A stretch of DNA of 64,000 bases. Origin: a virus. The notes beneath the pieces were generated by a model that ran no database searches, had not been told where the DNA came from, and saw only the letters and a program-made list of their open reading frames with translations. The stretch is from IMG/VR virus record IMGVR_UViG_3300005842_000001, positions 8,806-72,805 of that record; one strand, given 5' to 3'. Of this stretch, positions 14,681 through 19,821 are shown piece after piece (position 1 is the first letter of the stretch; each line of letters starts with the position of its first letter). A program made the position numbers and the translations under genes.

Positions 14681-17600
14681 ATGAATCAATTACCAATGAA
14701 TCCTGGCAACGACATGACCGACGTTCGCATCAAGTCGGGACTATTCGGCGGCATGGGCGGTATTGGCCGACAGATGGGCCGGGTGATGTACCGCACCGGG
14801 CAGTTCCTCGGTGTCATGCCTTGGGAGACGCCGAGACGTTCACAGATCGGGGTCGATCCCATCGGTGAAGAGTTCATGCTCAATGAGGATCAGCAAGCTA
14901 AGGCCCGCTTGATGGGTCAGAAAATCTATCACGAGTTTGTTGCTGGTCGTTTCAGCTTCTTGTCCAACGACGATGGCAAGAGCAACGAAACGCCTCAGAT
15001 GCGTGAAGAATACTGGAAGTTTGCAGTCACAGAGCCAGCGCTTGACGCTGCTCTGTGGACAAAGATCACCGCAGTCATCGCCAATGAATTGATCATCAAG
15101 CCATCATCGAAGTCAGGCTTTGATCGATACATTGCCGATTGGGTGCATGACTGCATTATCAGATGCAAGGGCGGCTTGCGCAACATCGGTGAGCAGATTC
15201 TCTTTCATGGTCAAGTGTACGGCAATGTGTTATGTGAACCGAAATGGAAGCACGAGCATCGGCAAGTCCACTCAACGATGTTCCCTTATGGTTTCTGGAC
15301 GCTGAAGGATTTCGTTGCAAAGCCACCGGGCGATTACAAATTGGAAATCGATGGCTTCAGAAACATCACCGGCGTCTGGTCGGCAAAAACTGCTGAATGG
15401 TTCGATCCTACTTACTTCGTTTATTGGGCTCACAAGCCGATCTATGGCAACATGGGCGGCACGTCGGGCGTTCGCAGTGTCAGACGAGCTTGCACTCTTC
15501 TAAAGCTGGCCCACAACTATCGAGGCATCTACCTTGAGCAGTTCGGCTTGCCGATGATCAAGGCGACTTACCCCCAGAACGATGACGACTCTCAGCGCAT
15601 CGCAAGAGCAGCGATTCAACACGCTCGATCACTCGGCTACATCTTGATACCAGAAGGTGTTGACGTTGAGGCATTGACACTGGCACAGCGCGGCGAGTCT
15701 GACTATCAGGATGCCATTGACGATTACCGAAAAGAAATCTTCCTTGGGCAGACAGGATCGTACCTGTATGCGATGGAAGGAAGCGTAGGTCATGCTGCTG
15801 GCAATTCAGAGACTCACCGCAGTACGCTTGATCTGTGGGTTGGGTATCTCAGCAAGATTCTGGAAGAGATTCTCAATGATCAGATCATTCCCTGGCTGAT
15901 CACGCTAAATATATACAACGCTGATCCGCCACGAGCTATGATCGGCGGCGTCAACGATGAAGATTTGAAAGCATCACTTGAGGTTGACGATAAATTGATT
16001 AGCTGGGGTGTTGAGCTTGATGAAGATGAACTACGAGATCGCTACCACCGATCAGCGCCAAAGAATGGCAAGGGCATTGGCGGCATGAATCGCTTGATGC
16101 TTGGGATGAACAATGGCATGGGAGCAAACAATGTACAAGGCAACCCGTTCGCTGGGCAAGCCGCTTCATTCCCGTTGCAGAATCAGGGGCAAGCCGCGAA
16201 TAACAATACACCGCCGCAAAGAGATGATCAGACAGTTAAGTTCTCAGCAGATGACGAGGACTTTACACAGCAGCAAAACTATACTTGCGGAACGGCATCA
16301 CTCCGATTCGCCATGAACCATTTTGGTGTCACTCCGCCTGAAGAAAGTGTGCTGTCCCTATTACTTGGTACGACACCAGCACAAGGCACGAATGCAGCCT
16401 CAATCGTGAGGCTGGCAAAGCAGAATGGGCTAGAGGCTGAAGGCCAGTCCAACATGACAATGCTCGAAATGTCAGAGCGTCTGAAGGATGGGGCAGTCGT
16501 ACTGGCTCCCATTCAGAAGTTCGGGTCACCTGAAGAGAAAGCGAAGAATCAGACTGGTCACTGGATCGCTGTAACACGTCTTGATGGTTCAAGCGGTATG
16601 CTTGAATACTTCGATCCAGTTTTGGGCAGTGACAAGCCCTGCTGGGAGTCGTTGCAGACGTTCGCTGCCAACTGGCATGATCGAGATGGTGATGGGAAGA
16701 TGTTGCCCAGGTATGCGATCACGATCAGCGAACCTAAAAAAAAAATGACATTCAGCACCGATGATCTGCAACTTGGATACATCTCGATTCCGCTGCCTGA
16801 GTTCGCTGAAGCAATCCAGAAGGTGCAAAGCGCGATCGATCCTGCTGACTTGATCAAGACTGAGAATGATCATCATATCACGTTGCTTTATGGTTGTGGC
16901 GCTGACAGCTTCGATGACAGCGTGAAGCTCTGCGCTAGCATTGCACCAATCAAGATGACTTTTGGCGGCACATTCACACTGTCGCCAAAAGATGCGGACC
17001 ATGACGTTCTGGCGTTCAAAGTCTATGGCGATGCTCTTGAGAAAGCAAACTACAGTCTCGCCAGCGGGTTAGAAGTCAAGCAAGACTACGATACCTTCCA
17101 GCCCCACGTCAAAATAGGGCGGCTCAAACAAGGGGCAGGGTCAAAATATACTTCACCATCATTTGCGGGCTTCTCAGCATTGCTGGGCGATTCCAAGGTG
17201 GCTGAGTCTGCTCAGTTCAAGGTAAAGGGTGGTGAAGCGTTAAGCCTCCCTTTTGCCGCAGTGTCTGATTTACCAGTTCTGAAGTTCTCAGAAGAGCCAG
17301 CAAGCGATGAAGTTGCCAAGCCGGGTAAAGATGGCGACAAAGCAGATAAGCTGCTACAGAACGTCAAGGAAGACGGTACAGCGATCCTGGCTCGACTTTG
17401 CAAAATGGCATATCGCCGCATGCTTGATAATGGCGTTGGTGGCAGTCAGCTATTCACGATGCAAGAGAGGAACGAACTCACCGAAGCATTCTTGGGCTGT
17501 GTGATCAATGCCAATCTGCTTGGTCGATCATCCACCATCAGCAAGTTCCTGAGAGACCAAGATGAATCGAGAGTTGATCGATTCGCTGATGAAACGCCAT

Positions 17601-18988
17601 TCGATGCGTTTTCATCTGCCCTTGATCCTTTGCGCCCTGAGCTAGCGATTGATTATTTCAAAAATCTGTTCCCGATGATCGGCGTTGATCCAGTGGCGTA
17701 CATTCCGCAGATGAGGCGATATGCCTTCACGTTGGCGGTTGCAACCGAGACAACTCTTCTTGGTAAGGTTCACGATCTACTGACTGATGCACTACACGAA
17801 GGAACGCTTGACACTCAATTCAAGATCGATGATCTGCTAAAGAAGACTGGCGTGGCTCCTGAAAACCCGCAGTACAGTGAAATGGTTTTCAGGACGAACA
17901 TGATGGACGCCTACACGACTGGCACGACAGATCAGGCAAAAGACCCGACCATTGCCGAAGCGTACCCGGTGTGGCGATACGATGGCATCGACGACGAACG
18001 CGCTGGGAAAGATCATCGCCCCAAGTTCGGGAAGTATTATCCATCGTCAGCAGAGTTTGCTGATGTTCGTGGTGATCGTCCTTATAACTGTGTTCTCCCT
18101 GGGCAGATGACACAGGGAAGAATCAATGGGGCATTAAAAGCCCACTATTCTGGCGAAGCGGTCGAGATTTATAGTGACAGTGGTGATATTATTTCCCTGA
18201 CCGTCAACCATCCCGTATTGACCGATAGAGGCTTTATTCGTGCTGGCGAAGTGAAGGAAGGAGATTATCTTGTCAGCTATTCCGGGGAACATCAAATCCC
18301 TGTTCTTGGTGAAGACTATCAATACTTTCCAACCTTGATCGAAGATGTATTTGAGACGATTAGTGTAGTTAAAGGTAGGTCGGCTAGGGCTTCTGCCCCA
18401 GTTTCCCTTTTCAAGCTCTATGGCGATGAGTTGTTCCTTGAAAGCAAGATCGACGTTGTAGGCTCCTATCGGGAATTGCTGTTCAATGGTGTGCCCCATG
18501 ATTCTGAGCGTGTTCGCAACTCTATCCTCTCTGGGGCTACGGTGAAGCTGCATGGCATACCACGAAGCAGCACGCTTCAATTTAACAGCCATGCTGTCAG
18601 TCATCCCTCTTCTAGCGGCGTGGGCCTTAGCGACTTGCTTGGCTCTGATGCGTTTGCTCATCAAACTCCATTTAGTCTTTTCTGCTTCGGATCGGCCTCG
18701 CACCTTTATTCCCAATTTGACGAATTGCTTTCTAAGACAACTTCTGTCGATGTTCAGTTTGTCGGCAAGAGCCTTCATGGAGGCACCGGCAAGGTAGCGT
18801 TTAGCAAGGCGAGAAAGATTAGGAATTTCCATTACGATGGTCCTGTGTTTGATTGCTCAACTGATGTTGGATATTTTATAGTAAATAACATCTTCATTTC
18901 AAATTGCCGCTGCTGTCCTACGATGATCTACAAGACAACATGGCAACAGTTGCAGGATCAAGGTAAGAGCGTAGAGACAAGCTGGTAG
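14681..18988 (+). CDS. fusion: Mu gp29/DUF935-like portal + C39-like Cys peptidase + 2H phosphoesterase + MuF head morphogenesis domain with intein
   Basis: Portal to about aa 470 (EQFGLP, IFLGQT, ILNDQII); peptidase QQQNYTCG...GHW...YFDP; 2H motifs HITL and PHVK; MuF VFRTNMMDAY..G, WRYDGIDD.R..DH, PYN/CRC. Confidence 0.85.
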   Translation: MNQLPMNPGNDMTDVRIKSGLFGGMGGIGRQMGRVMYRTGQFLGVMPWETPRRSQIGVDPIGEEFMLNEDQQAKARLMGQKIYHEFVAGRFSFLSNDDGKSNETPQMREEYWKFAVTEPALDAALWTKITAVIANELIIKPSSKSGFDRYIADWVHDCIIRCKGGLRNIGEQILFHGQVYGNVLCEPKWKHEHRQVHSTMFPYGFWTLKDFVAKPPGDYKLEIDGFRNITGVWSAKTAEWFDPTYFVYWAHKPIYGNMGGTSGVRSVRRACTLLKLAHNYRGIYLEQFGLPMIKATYPQNDDDSQRIARAAIQHARSLGYILIPEGVDVEALTLAQRGESDYQDAIDDYRKEIFLGQTGSYLYAMEGSVGHAAGNSETHRSTLDLWVGYLSKILEEILNDQIIPWLITLNIYNADPPRAMIGGVNDEDLKASLEVDDKLISWGVELDEDELRDRYHRSAPKNGKGIGGMNRLMLGMNNGMGANNVQGNPFAGQAASFPLQNQGQAANNNTPPQRDDQTVKFSADDEDFTQQQNYTCGTASLRFAMNHFGVTPPEESVLSLLLGTTPAQGTNAASIVRLAKQNGLEAEGQSNMTMLEMSERLKDGAVVLAPIQKFGSPEEKAKNQTGHWIAVTRLDGSSGMLEYFDPVLGSDKPCWESLQTFAANWHDRDGDGKMLPRYAITISEPKKKMTFSTDDLQLGYISIPLPEFAEAIQKVQSAIDPADLIKTENDHHITLLYGCGADSFDDSVKLCASIAPIKMTFGGTFTLSPKDADHDVLAFKVYGDALEKANYSLASGLEVKQDYDTFQPHVKIGRLKQGAGSKYTSPSFAGFSALLGDSKVAESAQFKVKGGEALSLPFAAVSDLPVLKFSEEPASDEVAKPGKDGDKADKLLQNVKEDGTAILARLCKMAYRRMLDNGVGGSQLFTMQERNELTEAFLGCVINANLLGRSSTISKFLRDQDESRVDRFADETPFDAFSSALDPLRPELAIDYFKNLFPMIGVDPVAYIPQMRRYAFTLAVATETTLLGKVHDLLTDALHEGTLDTQFKIDDLLKKTGVAPENPQYSEMVFRTNMMDAYTTGTTDQAKDPTIAEAYPVWRYDGIDDERAGKDHRPKFGKYYPSSAEFADVRGDRPYNCVLPGQMTQGRINGALKAHYSGEAVEIYSDSGDIISLTVNHPVLTDRGFIRAGEVKEGDYLVSYSGEHQIPVLGEDYQYFPTLIEDVFETISVVKGRSARASAPVSLFKLYGDELFLESKIDVVGSYRELLFNGVPHDSERVRNSILSGATVKLHGIPRSSTLQFNSHAVSHPSSSGVGLSDLLGSDAFAHQTPFSLFCFGSASHLYSQFDELLSKTTSVDVQFVGKSLHGGTGKVAFSKARKIRNFHYDGPVFDCSTDVGYFIVNNIFISNCRCCPTMIYKTTWQQLQDQGKSVETSW
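18089..18904 (+). mobile_element. intein (272 aa) inserted in the MuF PYN|CRC motif
   Basis: Starts CVLPG; block B LTVNHPVLT; block F/G YDGPVFD...YFIVNNIFISN; Cys at +1. Confidence 0.85.
18134..18832 (-). CDS. HTH + Vsr/DUF559-like PD-(D/E)xK endonuclease nested antisense within the intein
   Basis: RYLAGASMKALADKLNIDRSCLRK HTH; SPRE..V...L...G....QFPIGAYNVDLAF....IAIELE...W...R.KYIFDQGWKVLIV. Confidence 0.8.
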   Translation of the reverse strand: MEIPNLSRLAKRYLAGASMKALADKLNIDRSCLRKQFVKLGIKVRGRSEAEKTKWSLMSKRIRAKQVAKAHAARRGMTDSMAVKLKRAASWYAMQLHRSPREDRVANTLRIMGHTIEQQFPIGAYNVDLAFKEQLIAIELEKGNWGRSPSRPTFNYTNRLKYIFDQGWKVLIVFTKNRDLMFPGIADKIISFLHFASTNKASIGQYGMVDGQGNNITTVTINLDRFARIVGF

Positions 18989-19083
18989 CTGGTCATTGCC
19001 CAGAGTGTTCCTACTATGAAGACAACGCAACATGGCCCGGAGTTGCTGAAACGTGTCGAGGTAAGTTGGTAGCTTGGAGGCAA

Positions 19084-19437
19084 ATGATGCAAGCCTTACC
19101 GCCCCCGGACAATGATACATTCACCACTCTCTTGAGGGCATTAACTGCTGGTGTGCTGGGCATGATAGGTGCGAGCTTCTCTTCCTTAGATCGAGCAGTG
19201 AAGGGGAAAGAAATGTTCTGGCACCTGGGCTTGTCACTGTTTCTCTCTGGACTTACTTTTTGCACGTTGGTATCTATCTGGCCAGGTATTTATTGGATCG
19301 TGTGGCTTCTTCCTTCGTTCGTGATCGGCTTCTGTGTCTACGGCATTGCAGTTGCATTGAAAAAAAACAGCAAGTCTGCCGAAGACTTCGACGTTACTAA
19401 AGTCATCAAAAAGAAAACAGGCATAGAAGGAGATTAG
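19084..19437 (+). CDS. membrane protein (holin-like, tentative)
   Basis: Three hydrophobic segments, basic C-tail; GGAGG upstream. Confidence 0.55.
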   Translation: MMQALPPPDNDTFTTLLRALTAGVLGMIGASFSSLDRAVKGKEMFWHLGLSLFLSGLTFCTLVSIWPGIYWIVWLLPSFVIGFCVYGIAVALKKNSKSAEDFDVTKVIKKKTGIEGD

Positions 19438-19440
19438 GTC

Positions 19441-19821
19441 ATGTTCGTGATTCTCTGGGTGCTTGACAACATTGGAACCGCGCTCACAGTTGCAGCGGCT
19501 TTAGTAATCTTTGCGGTCGTTTGCGTACCGATGAGTCACCGACCTATAATTGAAAGAGTGTTCGGATTGTTCATCGGAATTTCGACGATGGGATCAGCAC
19601 TTGATCGTTTTGCGCAGGTCATGGCTCAATATGACGTAGATGGTAGCGTTCGTTGCGTGGCTATGCTCATCTTCGATATTTCAAAAATGGGCATCGTGAT
19701 TACAGGCGGCATGTTGCTCTATCGGTATATCGTGATGAAGAGAATGAACTGCGCTAGTGCTGATCGTTATGTGAAAAAATTGTCTGATCAAAAGACTCCA
19801 TTTTTTGCGGTGTCTCATTAA
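19441..19821 (+). CDS. membrane protein
   Basis: Three hydrophobic segments. Confidence 0.6.
   Translation: MFVILWVLDNIGTALTVAAALVIFAVVCVPMSHRPIIERVFGLFIGISTMGSALDRFAQVMAQYDVDGSVRCVAMLIFDISKMGIVITGGMLLYRYIVMKRMNCASADRYVKKLSDQKTPFFAVSH

What the first reader, a model, noticed from the sequence alone, without database searches (positions are those of the whole stretch)
18089..18904. Intein whose endonuclease appears to be encoded on the antisense strand
Seen: the 272-aa intein has splicing blocks, but its middle has no recognisable endonuclease motifs on the + frame. The minus strand holds a complete 232-aa ORF (18832-18134) with an HTH, a basic linker and a Vsr/DUF559-like nuclease. It is exactly codon-aligned with the + frame, fully nested, and overlaps block B. 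Both frames are open, which requires avoiding in-frame TTA/CTA/TCA on each strand. Established: bifunctional inteins normally carry the endonuclease in frame. Inference: a dual-coded mobile element in which protein splicing removes the antisense-derived filler while a separately expressed nuclease provides homing.
Basis: partly seen in the sequence, partly recalled or inferred. Interest (0 to 1): 0.9.

Follow-up and report, generated by a model that had tools for sequence, protein, structure and literature searches.

The report
Intein with antisense homing-endonuclease gene
A self-splicing protein insert in a phage head-assembly gene carries the gene for its DNA-cutting spreading enzyme on the opposite DNA strand, codon against codon; this is real and under selection, but a 2025 preprint already described the layout.

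Summary
Window 18089-18904 (+) is a 272-aa class-1 intein in the NCRC motif of a portal-MuF fusion gene. The minus strand (18832-18134) holds a codon-aligned 232-aa ORF with an HTH and a Vsr-like nuclease.

- The antisense protein matches I-Bth0305I and DUF559 structures. It folds at pLDDT 92.7, while the sense-frame middle folds below 50.
- Both frames stay open in nearly all 92 related loci.
- Codon-position variability switches from sense-constrained (splicing lobes) to antisense-constrained (middle) and back.
- Synonymous codons in splicing blocks F and G supply an ATG, a Shine-Dalgarno sequence and sigma-70-like promoters for the antisense gene.
- Intein-less alleles exist at exactly the predicted junction, in Gordonia phages and in a sibling strain of this phage.

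The layout is not new. Gosselin, Arsenault and Gogarten (bioRxiv 10.1101/2025.01.02.630785) report antisense VSR-like endonucleases in full inteins of actinophage minor capsid proteins. This scan had already noted the layout in at least 146 other genomes.

Not in that preprint's main text:
- the spread beyond actinophages;
- the constraint switch;
- the expression signals embedded in blocks F and G.

One caveat: the window's copy lacks the family's catalytic histidine.

The parts
14681..18988 (+). Host gene: a portal - C39-like - MuF fusion ORF (1435 aa) that the intein interrupts.
   Evidence: ORF. Pfam: Portal_Mu E 1e-38, Phage_Mu_F E 2.3e-4 (below cut-off), Peptidase_C39 weak.
18089..18904 (+). 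Class-1 intein, 272 aa: Cys1 ... Asn272, followed by Cys+1, inserted in the MuF motif N|CRC.
   Evidence: In alignment A4, C1, T38, N40, H41, P42 and N272 are invariant. An intein-less contig skips 18073-18925 and holds 37 letters in their place, which equals the 37 non-intein letters of the skipped part.
18089..18283 (+). HINT N-lobe (residues 1-65, blocks A and B). This part is sense-constrained.
   Evidence: AF2 pLDDT 93-98 for residues 1-60. Sense codon position 3 is the most variable here in 29 of 30 independent pairs, tested on residues 1-54.
18200..18214 (+). Block B, T-V-N-H-P. Its antisense shadow is the conserved G-x-Y-x-V-I-R-G tail motif of the nuclease.
   Evidence: Alignments.
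18794..18904 (+). HINT C-lobe (residues 236-272, blocks F and G). This part is sense-constrained.
   Evidence: AF2 pLDDT 92-98. Sense position 3 is the most variable in 29 of 30 pairs, tested on residues 247-272.
18134..18832 (-). Antisense ORF of 232 aa plus stop (stop at 18136-18134, the antisense of sense Leu16 TTA). It encodes an HTH plus a Vsr-like nuclease and is the candidate homing endonuclease.
18716..18817 (-). Three-helix HTH DNA-binding module (nuclease residues 6-39).
   Evidence: AF2 helices 6-14, 19-26 and 30-39. Across relatives: HTH_7 in 8 of 13 and HTH_58 in 7 of 13.
18239..18535 (-). Vsr-like nuclease core (residues 100-198), holding E102, Q119, Y125, N126, D128, E139 and R159.
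   Evidence: Profile hit to 3r3p and 3hrl over this part. Residue conservation in A3.
18841..18844 (-). Shine-Dalgarno-like AGGA, 8 nt before the ATG at 18832-18830. The ATG is the antisense of a His CAT codon.
   Evidence: Read. The family-wide equivalent is GGAG(G) 8 nt before the ATG, inside block F.
18873..18902 (-). Sigma-70-like promoter TTGAAA-18-TAAAAT (10 of 12 matches). The -35 hexamer lies on the intein's last codons I-S-N.
   Evidence: the only such site in 17900-19500, but its count is not above chance on its own. Family-wide enrichment at the same place is shown.

Best explanation
The stretch is a mobile class-1 intein in the conserved N|CRC motif of a phage MuF head-morphogenesis domain. 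Its homing-endonuclease gene is a separate ORF on the opposite strand, in the same codon register.

On the + strand the ribosome reads straight through. The two HINT lobes (residues about 1-65 and 236-272, perhaps with strands from 100-125) fold and splice out the whole 272-aa insert. The middle of that insert is an unstructured 'shadow' of the antisense gene.

On the - strand, a transcript probably starts from a promoter that lies on block G and the splice junction. It is translated from an ATG and Shine-Dalgarno sequence written into the block-F region. The product is a 232-aa protein with an N-terminal HTH module, a helical linker and a Vsr-like (I-Bth0305I-related) nuclease domain.

By inference, this protein cuts intein-less MuF alleles of co-infecting relatives at or near the NCRC-coding site. 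Recombinational repair then copies in the intein together with the nuclease gene.

Shown here: both reading frames; both folds; family-wide purifying selection partitioned between the strands; synonymous-site selection for antisense start signals; intein-plus and intein-minus alleles with exact boundaries.

Inferred: transcription, translation, cleavage, splicing, and the advantage of uncoupling nuclease expression from a late structural gene.

In this particular phage the nuclease lacks the family's general-base histidine, so its activity is uncertain.
For: **Antisense protein is a real protein.**
- Pfam gives MTES_1575 E 7.6e-6 and DUF559.
- Across 13 members: HTH_7 in 8, HTH_58 in 7, MTES_1575 in 7.
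- Profile against the PDB: 3r3p I-Bth0305I E 5.5e-7, 3hrl E 2.5e-6.
- AF2 with 52 sequences: pLDDT 92.7, pTM 0.79.
- Foldseek top hits: 3r3p, 1vsr/1cw0 and 3hrl.

**Sense frame is a real intein with a filler middle.**
- AF2 gives high confidence only for residues 1-65 and 236-272, and below 50 for 128-220.
- All listed top Foldseek hits are inteins or HINT domains.

**Conservation.**
- tblastn with the antisense protein hits 51 phage records, 48 of them at 80% coverage or more, best E 2e-24. The sense intein hits 43 records, none at 80% coverage.
- The annotated MuF CDS is on the other strand in 12 of 12 loci fetched.
- The nuclease HMM hits the antisense strand in 80 of 80 IMG/VR loci.
- 0 of 92 sense segments holds a stop.
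- Only 2 loci (L017, L021) have stops inside the nuclease part.
- A profile search of 1.84 billion representatives gives 1682 clusters at E <= 1e-30.

**Strand-specific selection, in 30 independent pairs.**

| Region (residues) | Pairs with sense pos1 > pos3 | Wilcoxon p |
|---|---|---|
| 1-54 | 1 of 30 | 9.65e-6 |
| 67-234 | 28 of 30 | 2.4e-6 |
| 247-272 | 1 of 30 | 7.19e-6 |

The alignment was guided by the sense protein, which biases against this result.

**Start and promoter signals.**
- Block-F His codon is CAT in 49 of 59, against 37% in exteins (p 8e-13).
- Block-F Leu codon is CTC in 52 of 61, against 29.5% in exteins (p 2e-19). Together these give an ATG and GGAG on the antisense strand.
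- A sigma-70-like site scoring 9 of 12 or better lies in the 130 nt upstream in 33 of 75 loci. Controls: 2.7% of 1838 other antisense windows, 6 of 75 on the sense strand of the same DNA, and 5.9% of shuffles.
- Ile codon ATA is 36 of 100 in block G against 15.6% in exteins.

**Mobility.**
- Of 152 Gordonia phage records with a similar MuF, 7 hold this intein. Geodirt lacks exactly the 948-bp intein, with flanks 97.5% identical.
- In run X4, one contig (depth 12) lacks exactly the window's intein, while another (depth 4.4) holds it.
Against: There is no expression evidence: no RNA run is listed for this DNA.

The window's nuclease has Gly146 where the EDxHD family's general-base His lies, in the GGxWH motif. 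Its closest subtype has a variable loop there, so catalysis may be impaired or may work differently.

The Pfam nuclease matches are below the curated cut-offs (26.4 against 38.2 bits; 16.4 against 20.6). The Foldseek E-values are weak (3.6e-3), although the hits rank first.

The promoter-like site in the window is not above the chance count for its region (1 found, 2.0 expected).

The loci compared are related, so the counts are not fully independent events.

In-phase antisense ORFs are the commonest kind of spurious long ORF in GC-rich DNA. This would explain openness alone, but not the fold, the profile hits or the position switch.

No free-standing member of this exact family was shown: 8 of 8 database proteins inspected carry the block-B shadow tail and so are intein-embedded.
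Confidence: 0.85

Rival explanations
1. The antisense ORF is intact and selected, but in this lineage it is no longer a homing nuclease. It would be catalytically dead, or re-used as a DNA-binding or regulatory protein or a nickase, and the intein would now be inherited vertically.
For: The window's subtype lacks the GGxWH histidine that is the predicted general base in I-Bth0305I: Gly146 here, with a variable loop in the closest relatives (passages of PMC3239194). According to the passages read, the 2025 preprint says most VSR-like cases look vertically inherited.
Against: E102, D128, E139 and R159 are kept in 50 to 52 of 52 sequences. An intein-less sibling allele co-occurs with the intein-plus allele in one sample, which is the setting for homing. 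The middle region remains under antisense-frame constraint across the family.
Confidence: 0.12
2. The antisense ORF is a chance or 'shadow' ORF. On this view its conservation only mirrors conservation of the sense protein, and the in-phase antisense frame is open because of codon bias.
For: In-phase antisense frames are statistically the most open (general knowledge). Some conserved antisense motifs are indeed shadows, such as the tail G-x-Y-x-V-I-R-G, which is the antisense of block B.
Against: The antisense frame hits independent HTH and nuclease families and solved structures and folds at pLDDT 92.7. In the middle, sense position 1 varies more than position 3 in 28 of 30 pairs. P(open by chance) is 4e-6 in the window alone.
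Confidence: 0.02
3. The + frame middle is itself a novel in-frame endonuclease or other domain, and the antisense ORF is secondary.
For: Residues 81-127 of the sense model have moderate confidence (pLDDT 75-94). Columns 103-114 are conserved at all three codon positions.
Against: Pfam finds no endonuclease or other non-HINT family on the sense frame. pLDDT is below 50 for residues 128-220. The conserved sense motifs D-F-H-G-D and I-x-V-V are the exact antisense of the nuclease motifs V-A-V-E and Y-N-x-D. The codon-position signature favours the antisense frame.
Confidence: 0.01

Closest known systems
Anti-sense VSR-like homing endonucleases in full inteins of actinobacteriophage minor capsid (MuF-like) proteins: Gosselin, Arsenault and Gogarten, bioRxiv 10.1101/2025.01.02.630785. 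I read the abstract, sections 15 and 28, and passages; the supplements were closed.
   Same: A full intein in a minor capsid / MuF protein. The endonuclease ORF lies on the antisense strand inside the intein. The in-frame middle has no recognisable structure. The antisense protein matches Vsr (1CW0) and 3R3P. Gordonia phages of the same group appear among my loci.
   Different: The window is from a rhizosphere-metagenome phage of unknown host. Relatives infect Pseudomonas, Vibrio, Klebsiella, Aggregatibacter and others, so the layout is not confined to actinophages.

The preprint's main text has no occurrence of 'promoter', 'start codon', 'ribosome binding' or 'codon position'. [quoted passage not shown] Here the ORF overlaps block B and starts in the block-F region.
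Anti-sense LAGLIDADG endonucleases in inteins (Gorbalenya 1998; Gogarten et al. 2002; Ssp DnaX and Chloroflexus SpoVR-like inteins), known to me only as cited in the preprint passages. I did not read these papers.
   Same: The homing-endonuclease ORF lies on the strand opposite to a continuous intein reading frame.
   Different: The nuclease family is different (LAGLIDADG, not Vsr-like), as are the host genes. A LAGLIDADG-like antisense ORF also sits in a second, unrelated intein at the same MuF site in Gordonia phage Nordenberg.
'Fractured genes': split inteins with a free-standing Vsr-like endonuclease gene between the halves (Dassa et al. 2009, PMC2677866; passages read).
   Same: A Vsr-like nuclease with N-terminal DNA-binding modules is associated with an intein in phage genes. 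The nuclease is a separate translation unit.
   Different: In fractured genes the endonuclease is on the same strand and the intein and host gene are physically split. Here the intein is continuous and the nuclease is antisense and dual-coded.
I-Bth0305I, prototype of the EDxHD homing endonucleases (Taylor et al. 2011, PMC3239194; passages read; PDB 3r3p).
   Same: It is the best sequence-profile and fold match for the nuclease core. It has the same bipartite build: N-terminal HTH/NUMOD-like modules plus a C-terminal Vsr-like domain.
   Different: I-Bth0305I is encoded in a group I intron on the sense strand. The window's protein lacks the His of the EDxHD motif.
Hidden out-of-frame HNH endonuclease in an in-frame insertion of a phage methylase (Arsenault et al. 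2025, PMC11855218; abstract and passages read).
   Same: An endonuclease is read in a frame other than that of the host-gene insertion, which itself stays stop-free.
   Different: That case is on the same strand, involves an HNH nuclease, and has no splicing domain.

Membership tests
Class-1 intein (HINT splicing domain) | N-terminal Cys/Ser nucleophile, and Cys/Ser/Thr at +1 after a C-terminal Asn. | tested here: met
   Cys1, Asn272 and Cys+1. C1 and N272 are invariant in 41 sequences.
Class-1 intein (HINT splicing domain) | Block B T-x-x-H. | tested here: met
   T38-V-N-H41-P. T38, N40, H41 and P42 are invariant.
Class-1 intein (HINT splicing domain) | HINT fold. | tested here: met
   Pfam Intein_splicing E 5.6e-7, but 29.9 bits is below the 35.8 cut-off. 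The AF2 lobes have pLDDT above 92. Foldseek hits are Mtu RecA and other inteins, with probability 1.00.
Class-1 intein (HINT splicing domain) | Precise presence/absence at the extein junction, with the host motif restored. | tested here: met
   Geodirt reads ...N-C-R-C... without the 948-bp insert, and Phage_Mu_F E 1.2e-13 spans the site. The X4 contig lacks exactly 816 nt.
Class-1 intein (HINT splicing domain) | Protein splicing activity. | not testable with these tools
   Needs expression of the precursor.
EDxHD / Vsr-like homing endonucleases (I-Bth0305I family) | Vsr-like nuclease fold. | tested here: met
   Profile hit to 3r3p E 5.5e-7. Foldseek ranks 3r3p first, then 1vsr/1cw0; 3hrl ranks 8th.
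EDxHD / Vsr-like homing endonucleases (I-Bth0305I family) | Conserved acidic residues (E and the metal-binding D). | tested here: met
   E102 in 50 of 52, D128 in 51 of 52, E139 in 52 of 52. D128 aligns with D196 of I-Bth0305I.
EDxHD / Vsr-like homing endonucleases (I-Bth0305I family) | General-base histidine (H213 of I-Bth0305I, in the GGxWH motif). | tested here: not met
   The window has G-N-W-G146. Many relatives have GGxWH, but the window's subtype has a variable loop.
EDxHD / Vsr-like homing endonucleases (I-Bth0305I family) | N-terminal HTH/NUMOD-like DNA-binding modules. | tested here: met
   One HTH in the window and 1 to 5 repeats in relatives.
EDxHD / Vsr-like homing endonucleases (I-Bth0305I family) | Site-specific cleavage of the element-less allele. 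| not testable with these tools
   Needs an in-vitro cleavage assay.
Pfam MTES_1575 / DUF559 | Score at or above Pfam's gathering cut-off. | tested here: not met
   26.4 against 38.2 bits, and 16.4 against 20.6 bits. The protein is therefore related at clan level only.
Inteins with anti-sense VSR-like HEN (Gosselin et al. 2025) | A continuous intein with a VSR-like ORF on the antisense strand within it, in a minor capsid / MuF protein. | tested here: met
Inteins with anti-sense VSR-like HEN (Gosselin et al. 2025) | Actinobacteriophage host (the scope of the original description). | tested here: inconclusive
   The host of the window's 72.8-kb phage is unknown; the phage comes from rhizosphere metagenomes. 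Relatives infect both Actinobacteria and Proteobacteria.

The most novel reading that the evidence does not exclude
The whole expression cassette of the antisense endonuclease gene is written into the codons of the intein's own splicing blocks.

- The -35 hexamer lies on the terminal V/I-S-N|C junction, or the -10 hexamer on the G-I-I codons of block G.
- The Shine-Dalgarno sequence lies on the Leu-Gln/Glu codons of block F.
- The ATG lies on the His codon of block F.

The splicing domain and the nuclease gene would then be physically inseparable and would co-evolve as one bidirectional unit. This unit is one of the commonest intein types in tailed phages across bacterial phyla (more than 1,600 clusters at 50% identity), not a rarity of actinophages.
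Probability: 0.55. Interest if true: 0.6.

Novelty: new member of a known kind. Interest (0 to 1): 0.38.

Why it matters
About 700 bp here encode two functional proteins on opposite strands, and selection is cleanly partitioned between them. That makes the element a clear natural example of antisense dual coding.

Standard annotation misses the nuclease gene: it was annotated in none of the 12 phage records inspected. Intein surveys that look only in frame would class these elements as endonuclease-less.

The layout also shows how a free-standing homing endonuclease gene and a splicing element can fuse into one mobile unit without a protein fusion. It gives testable sites for this: an ATG, a Shine-Dalgarno sequence and a promoter inside splicing blocks.

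The concept has been published as a preprint, so the value here lies in breadth and mechanism rather than discovery.

Tried and rejected
- **Word-based protein search.** The search for homologous proteins with the antisense protein gave nothing at E <= 1e-3. The full HMMER profile search later found thousands.
- **The search for related loci with the single protein.** It found only the same phage's IMG/VR copy.
- **RNA evidence.** No RNA holder is listed for this DNA, so expression could not be examined.
- **Free-standing members.** Of the database proteins, 8 of 8 fetched carry the block-B shadow tail, so they are intein-embedded. This does not show that free-standing members are absent.
- **Window promoter and terminator scan.** It gave one promoter-like site and three terminator-like sites, none above the shuffled expectation. 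I rely on the family-wide test instead.
- **Crude histidine count.** My count of 'His within +3..+10 of E139' (41 of 52) is too loose to say how many members keep the catalytic His. I use only the aligned motif as seen.
- **Rows left out of the codon-position analysis.** L013 is identical to the window. L017 and L021 have broken nucleases. L043 has a large extra insertion. L089's segment was mis-set. L064 and L085 are cut by contig ends. L019 and L081 have odd C-termini. Nine duplicates were also removed. This left 76 of 92 segments.
- **Literature searches.** Searches found no report of the antisense layout. One search found the preprint that does report it.
- **Supplements.** The preprint's supplementary tables and figures, which list which phages carry VSR-like cases, could not be seen.
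Full report
**1. What is there**

The window is part of a complete 72,805-bp virus record with direct terminal repeats. A 1435-aa + strand ORF (14681-18988) joins a Mu-type portal (Pfam E 1e-38), a weak C39-like peptidase match and a MuF domain.

Residues 1137-1408 (18089-18904) form a 272-aa insert. It begins with Cys, has block B T-V-N-H-P, and ends in Asn before Cys+1. Pfam finds only HINT and intein families on this frame.

The minus strand holds a complete ATG-to-stop ORF, 18832-18134 (232 aa). It is in the same codon register as the + frame and nested in the insert. It overlaps block B, and its stop is the antisense of sense Leu16 (TTA).

**2. The antisense frame encodes a real protein**

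- On its own the protein hits the MTES_1575 restriction-endonuclease family (E 7.6e-6), DUF559 and weak HTH families. All are under Pfam's cut-offs.
- Among 13 family members scanned singly, 8 hit HTH_7 (best E 3.5e-9), 7 hit HTH_58 (7.6e-12), 7 hit MTES_1575, 3 hit DUF559 and 1 hits Vsr.
- A profile of the 13 hits two solved structures: the I-Bth0305I homing endonuclease catalytic domain (3r3p, E 5.5e-7) and a DUF559 protein (3hrl, E 2.5e-6).
- AlphaFold2 with 52 sequences, taken from the window and IMG/VR loci, gives mean pLDDT 92.7 and pTM 0.79. The model has a three-helix HTH, a helical linker and an alpha/beta nuclease core. Foldseek's best PDB matches are 3r3p, Vsr (1vsr, 1cw0) and 3hrl.
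- The sense frame behaves differently. With 41 sequences it is confident only for residues 1-65 and 236-272. Confidence is moderate for about 81-127 and below 50 for 128-220. All its listed top PDB matches are inteins or HINT domains.

**3. The layout is conserved and widespread**

- tblastn of the antisense protein against 50,697 phage records finds 51 records, 48 at 80% coverage or more, with best E 2e-24. The phages infect Pseudomonas, Gordonia, Klebsiella, Vibrio, Aggregatibacter/Haemophilus, Cronobacter, Pantoea and others.
- The sense intein finds 43 records, none at 80% coverage, and mostly only through its N-terminal half.
- In 12 of 12 loci fetched, the annotated MuF or head gene is on the other strand and the antisense ORF is not annotated.
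- In 13 of 13 loci (window included) both frames are open and in the same register.
- A scan of IMG/VR with the sense intein returned 513 relatives, of which 80 were fetched. All 80 carry a strong nuclease-HMM hit on the antisense strand, with E from about 1e-30 to 1e-87.
- None of the 92 sense segments has a stop.
- The antisense frame is interrupted inside the nuclease part only in L017 and L021. There the sense frame is still open, as expected if the nuclease can decay while the intein must stay readable.
- A profile search of 1.84 billion representative proteins gives 25,887 hits at E <= 1e-3, 5,233 at <= 1e-10 and 1,682 at <= 1e-30, with one to five HTH repeats. The 8 sequences I fetched all carry the block-B shadow tail, so they are intein-embedded copies.

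**4. Which strand is under selection, and where**

In-register antisense coding pairs sense codon position 1 with antisense position 3. I used a codon alignment guided by the sense protein, which biases against the antisense frame. It covered 76 non-redundant loci and 90 pairs of 55-98% nucleotide identity. The excess of position-1 over position-3 mismatches came out as follows:

| Intein residues | Pos1 minus pos3 mismatch | Frame constrained |
|---|---|---|
| -5 to 54 | -0.11 to -0.27 | sense |
| 55 to 234 | about 0 to +0.23, mostly positive | antisense |
| 247 to 270 | -0.19 to -0.25 | sense |

In 30 independent nearest-neighbour pairs, position 1 exceeds position 3 in 1 of 30 (N-lobe), 28 of 30 (middle, Wilcoxon p 2.4e-6) and 1 of 30 (C-lobe).

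The conserved sense motifs in the middle, D-F-H-G-D and I-x-V-V, are the exact antisense of the nuclease motifs V-A-V-E and Y-N-x-D. Conversely, the nuclease's conserved tail G-x-Y-x-V-I-R-G is the antisense of block B. So each protein has a functional part and a 'shadow' part.

Columns 103-114 are conserved at all three positions. This region may serve both frames.

**5. Expression signals hidden in the splicing blocks (inferred function)**

- In most loci the nuclease ATG is the antisense of the His codon of block F (G-H-V-Y-D/N-L-Q/E). A GGAG(G) lies 8 nt upstream and is the antisense of the Leu-Gln/Glu codons.
- The synonymous choices are strongly skewed. His is CAT in 49 of 59, against 37% in the exteins of the same loci (p 8e-13). 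Leu is CTC in 52 of 61, against 29.5% (p 2e-19).
- A sigma-70-like promoter scoring 9 of 12 or better lies in the 130 nt upstream on the antisense strand in 33 of 75 loci. The controls are 2.7% of 1,838 other antisense windows, 6 of 75 on the sense strand of the same DNA, and 5.9% of shuffles. Two loci match 12 of 12.
- The -35 hexamer clusters on the intein's last codons or 11-14 nt into the C-extein.
- The rare Ile codon ATA is enriched in block G: 36 of 100 against 15.6%.
- In the window, block F has Pro in place of His. The ATG is the antisense of a His four codons earlier, with AGGA 8 nt upstream. A TTGAAA-18-TAAAAT site lies on the I-S-N junction, 40 nt upstream.
- No RNA data exist for this DNA, so all of this is inference.

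**6. Mobility**

Among 152 Gordonia phage records with a similar MuF, 7 records (4 phages) hold the Fosterous-type intein. Geodirt lacks exactly its 948 bp, with flanks 97.5% identical, and reads ...N-C-R-C... A Phage_Mu_F match (E 1.2e-13) spans the site.

For the window's own phage, a 655-nt contig of run X4 (depth 12) joins 18072 to 18926 with 37 letters in between. That is the length of the non-intein part of the skipped stretch, and the letters keep N-C-R-C in frame. Another contig of the same run (depth 4.4) holds the intein without a difference. So intein-plus and intein-minus alleles co-occur, and the boundaries are as predicted.

**7. A caveat for this copy**

The I-Bth0305I family (EDxHD) uses D196 and H213. 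The crystallised protein carried D196A and H213A (passages of PMC3239194). The window keeps E102, D128, E139 and R159 but has Gly at the His position. Its nearest subtype has a variable loop there, while many other members have GGxWH. The protein may be a weaker, different or inactive nuclease. I therefore do not file it as an EDxHD member, only as Vsr-like and related to that family.

**8. What is known**

My first five literature searches found no report of the layout. The sixth found Gosselin, Arsenault and Gogarten, bioRxiv 10.1101/2025.01.02.630785.

- Its main text does not mention promoters, start codons, ribosome binding or codon positions. I could not see its supplements.
- Other related work: split 'fractured genes' with same-strand Vsr-like endonucleases (PMC2677866); I-Bth0305I (PMC3239194); and a hidden out-of-frame HNH in a methylase insertion (PMC11855218).
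- This scan's own notes list the same layout in at least 146 other genomes. Several follow-ups name the same preprint. I reached the preprint before that look-up.

**9. Verdict**

The element is a new member of a known, recently described kind.

The parts that go beyond the preprint's main text are the spread across phages of several bacterial phyla and thousands of metagenomic clusters, the strand-switching constraint, and the promoter, Shine-Dalgarno sequence and ATG embedded in blocks G and F. These parts are computational and need bench confirmation.

Noticed in passing
L096:701-1525 (+) and L096:815-1402 (-), Gordonia phage Nordenberg: A different 275-aa intein sits at the same MuF N|CRC site. 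It has a 196-aa in-register antisense ORF with a LAGLIDADG-like motif. That ORF weakly hits I-MsoI (E 1.3e-3). It also hits annotated endonuclease genes of Cyanophage PP and Caulobacter phage CcrRogue (E 2e-6 to 8e-6), but has no Pfam hit. It is probably the antisense LAGLIDADG type described in the 2025 preprint.
   Followed up: partly
window 14681-18988: Portal (Portal_Mu E 1e-38), a weak C39-like peptidase match (E 3e-4) and MuF are fused in one 1435-aa ORF, whereas portal and MuF are usually separate genes. Earlier notes of the scan also flag this.
   Followed up: no
proteins P0003-P0152; P0054, P0049 and P0006: Family members carry one to five tandem HTH repeats before the nuclease core (230-446 aa). 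The intein's filler middle grows with the DNA-binding array of the antisense gene.
   Followed up: partly
L017 and L021 (IMG/VR loci): The antisense nuclease frame has two stops in L017 and one in L021, in otherwise well-conserved sequence, while the sense intein stays open. These are candidate freshly decayed endonucleases, or sequencing errors.
   Followed up: partly
L043 (IMG/VR locus): The sense intein segment is 476 codons long, with an extra stretch of about 150 codons on the C-terminal side. That stretch is not part of the intact nuclease ORF, and its nature is unknown.
   Followed up: no
window 18072-18926 against the contig of run X4: The intein-less sibling allele is about 96% identical in the flanks. 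It differs at most of the 37 letters right around the insertion site. This could be a co-conversion tract or a cleavage-resistant target variant.
   Followed up: no
window 18395-18430 (intein residues 103-114): Across the family this segment is conserved at all three codon positions (mismatch 0.23 / 0.12 / 0.24). On the sense strand it encodes a moderately confident beta strand, and on the antisense strand the V-A-V-E active-site strand. Both frames may be constrained here.
   Followed up: partly
window 17944-17959 (-): A weak terminator-like hairpin with a T run lies on the minus strand, 175 nt downstream of the nuclease stop. It is not above the chance count for the region.
   Followed up: no
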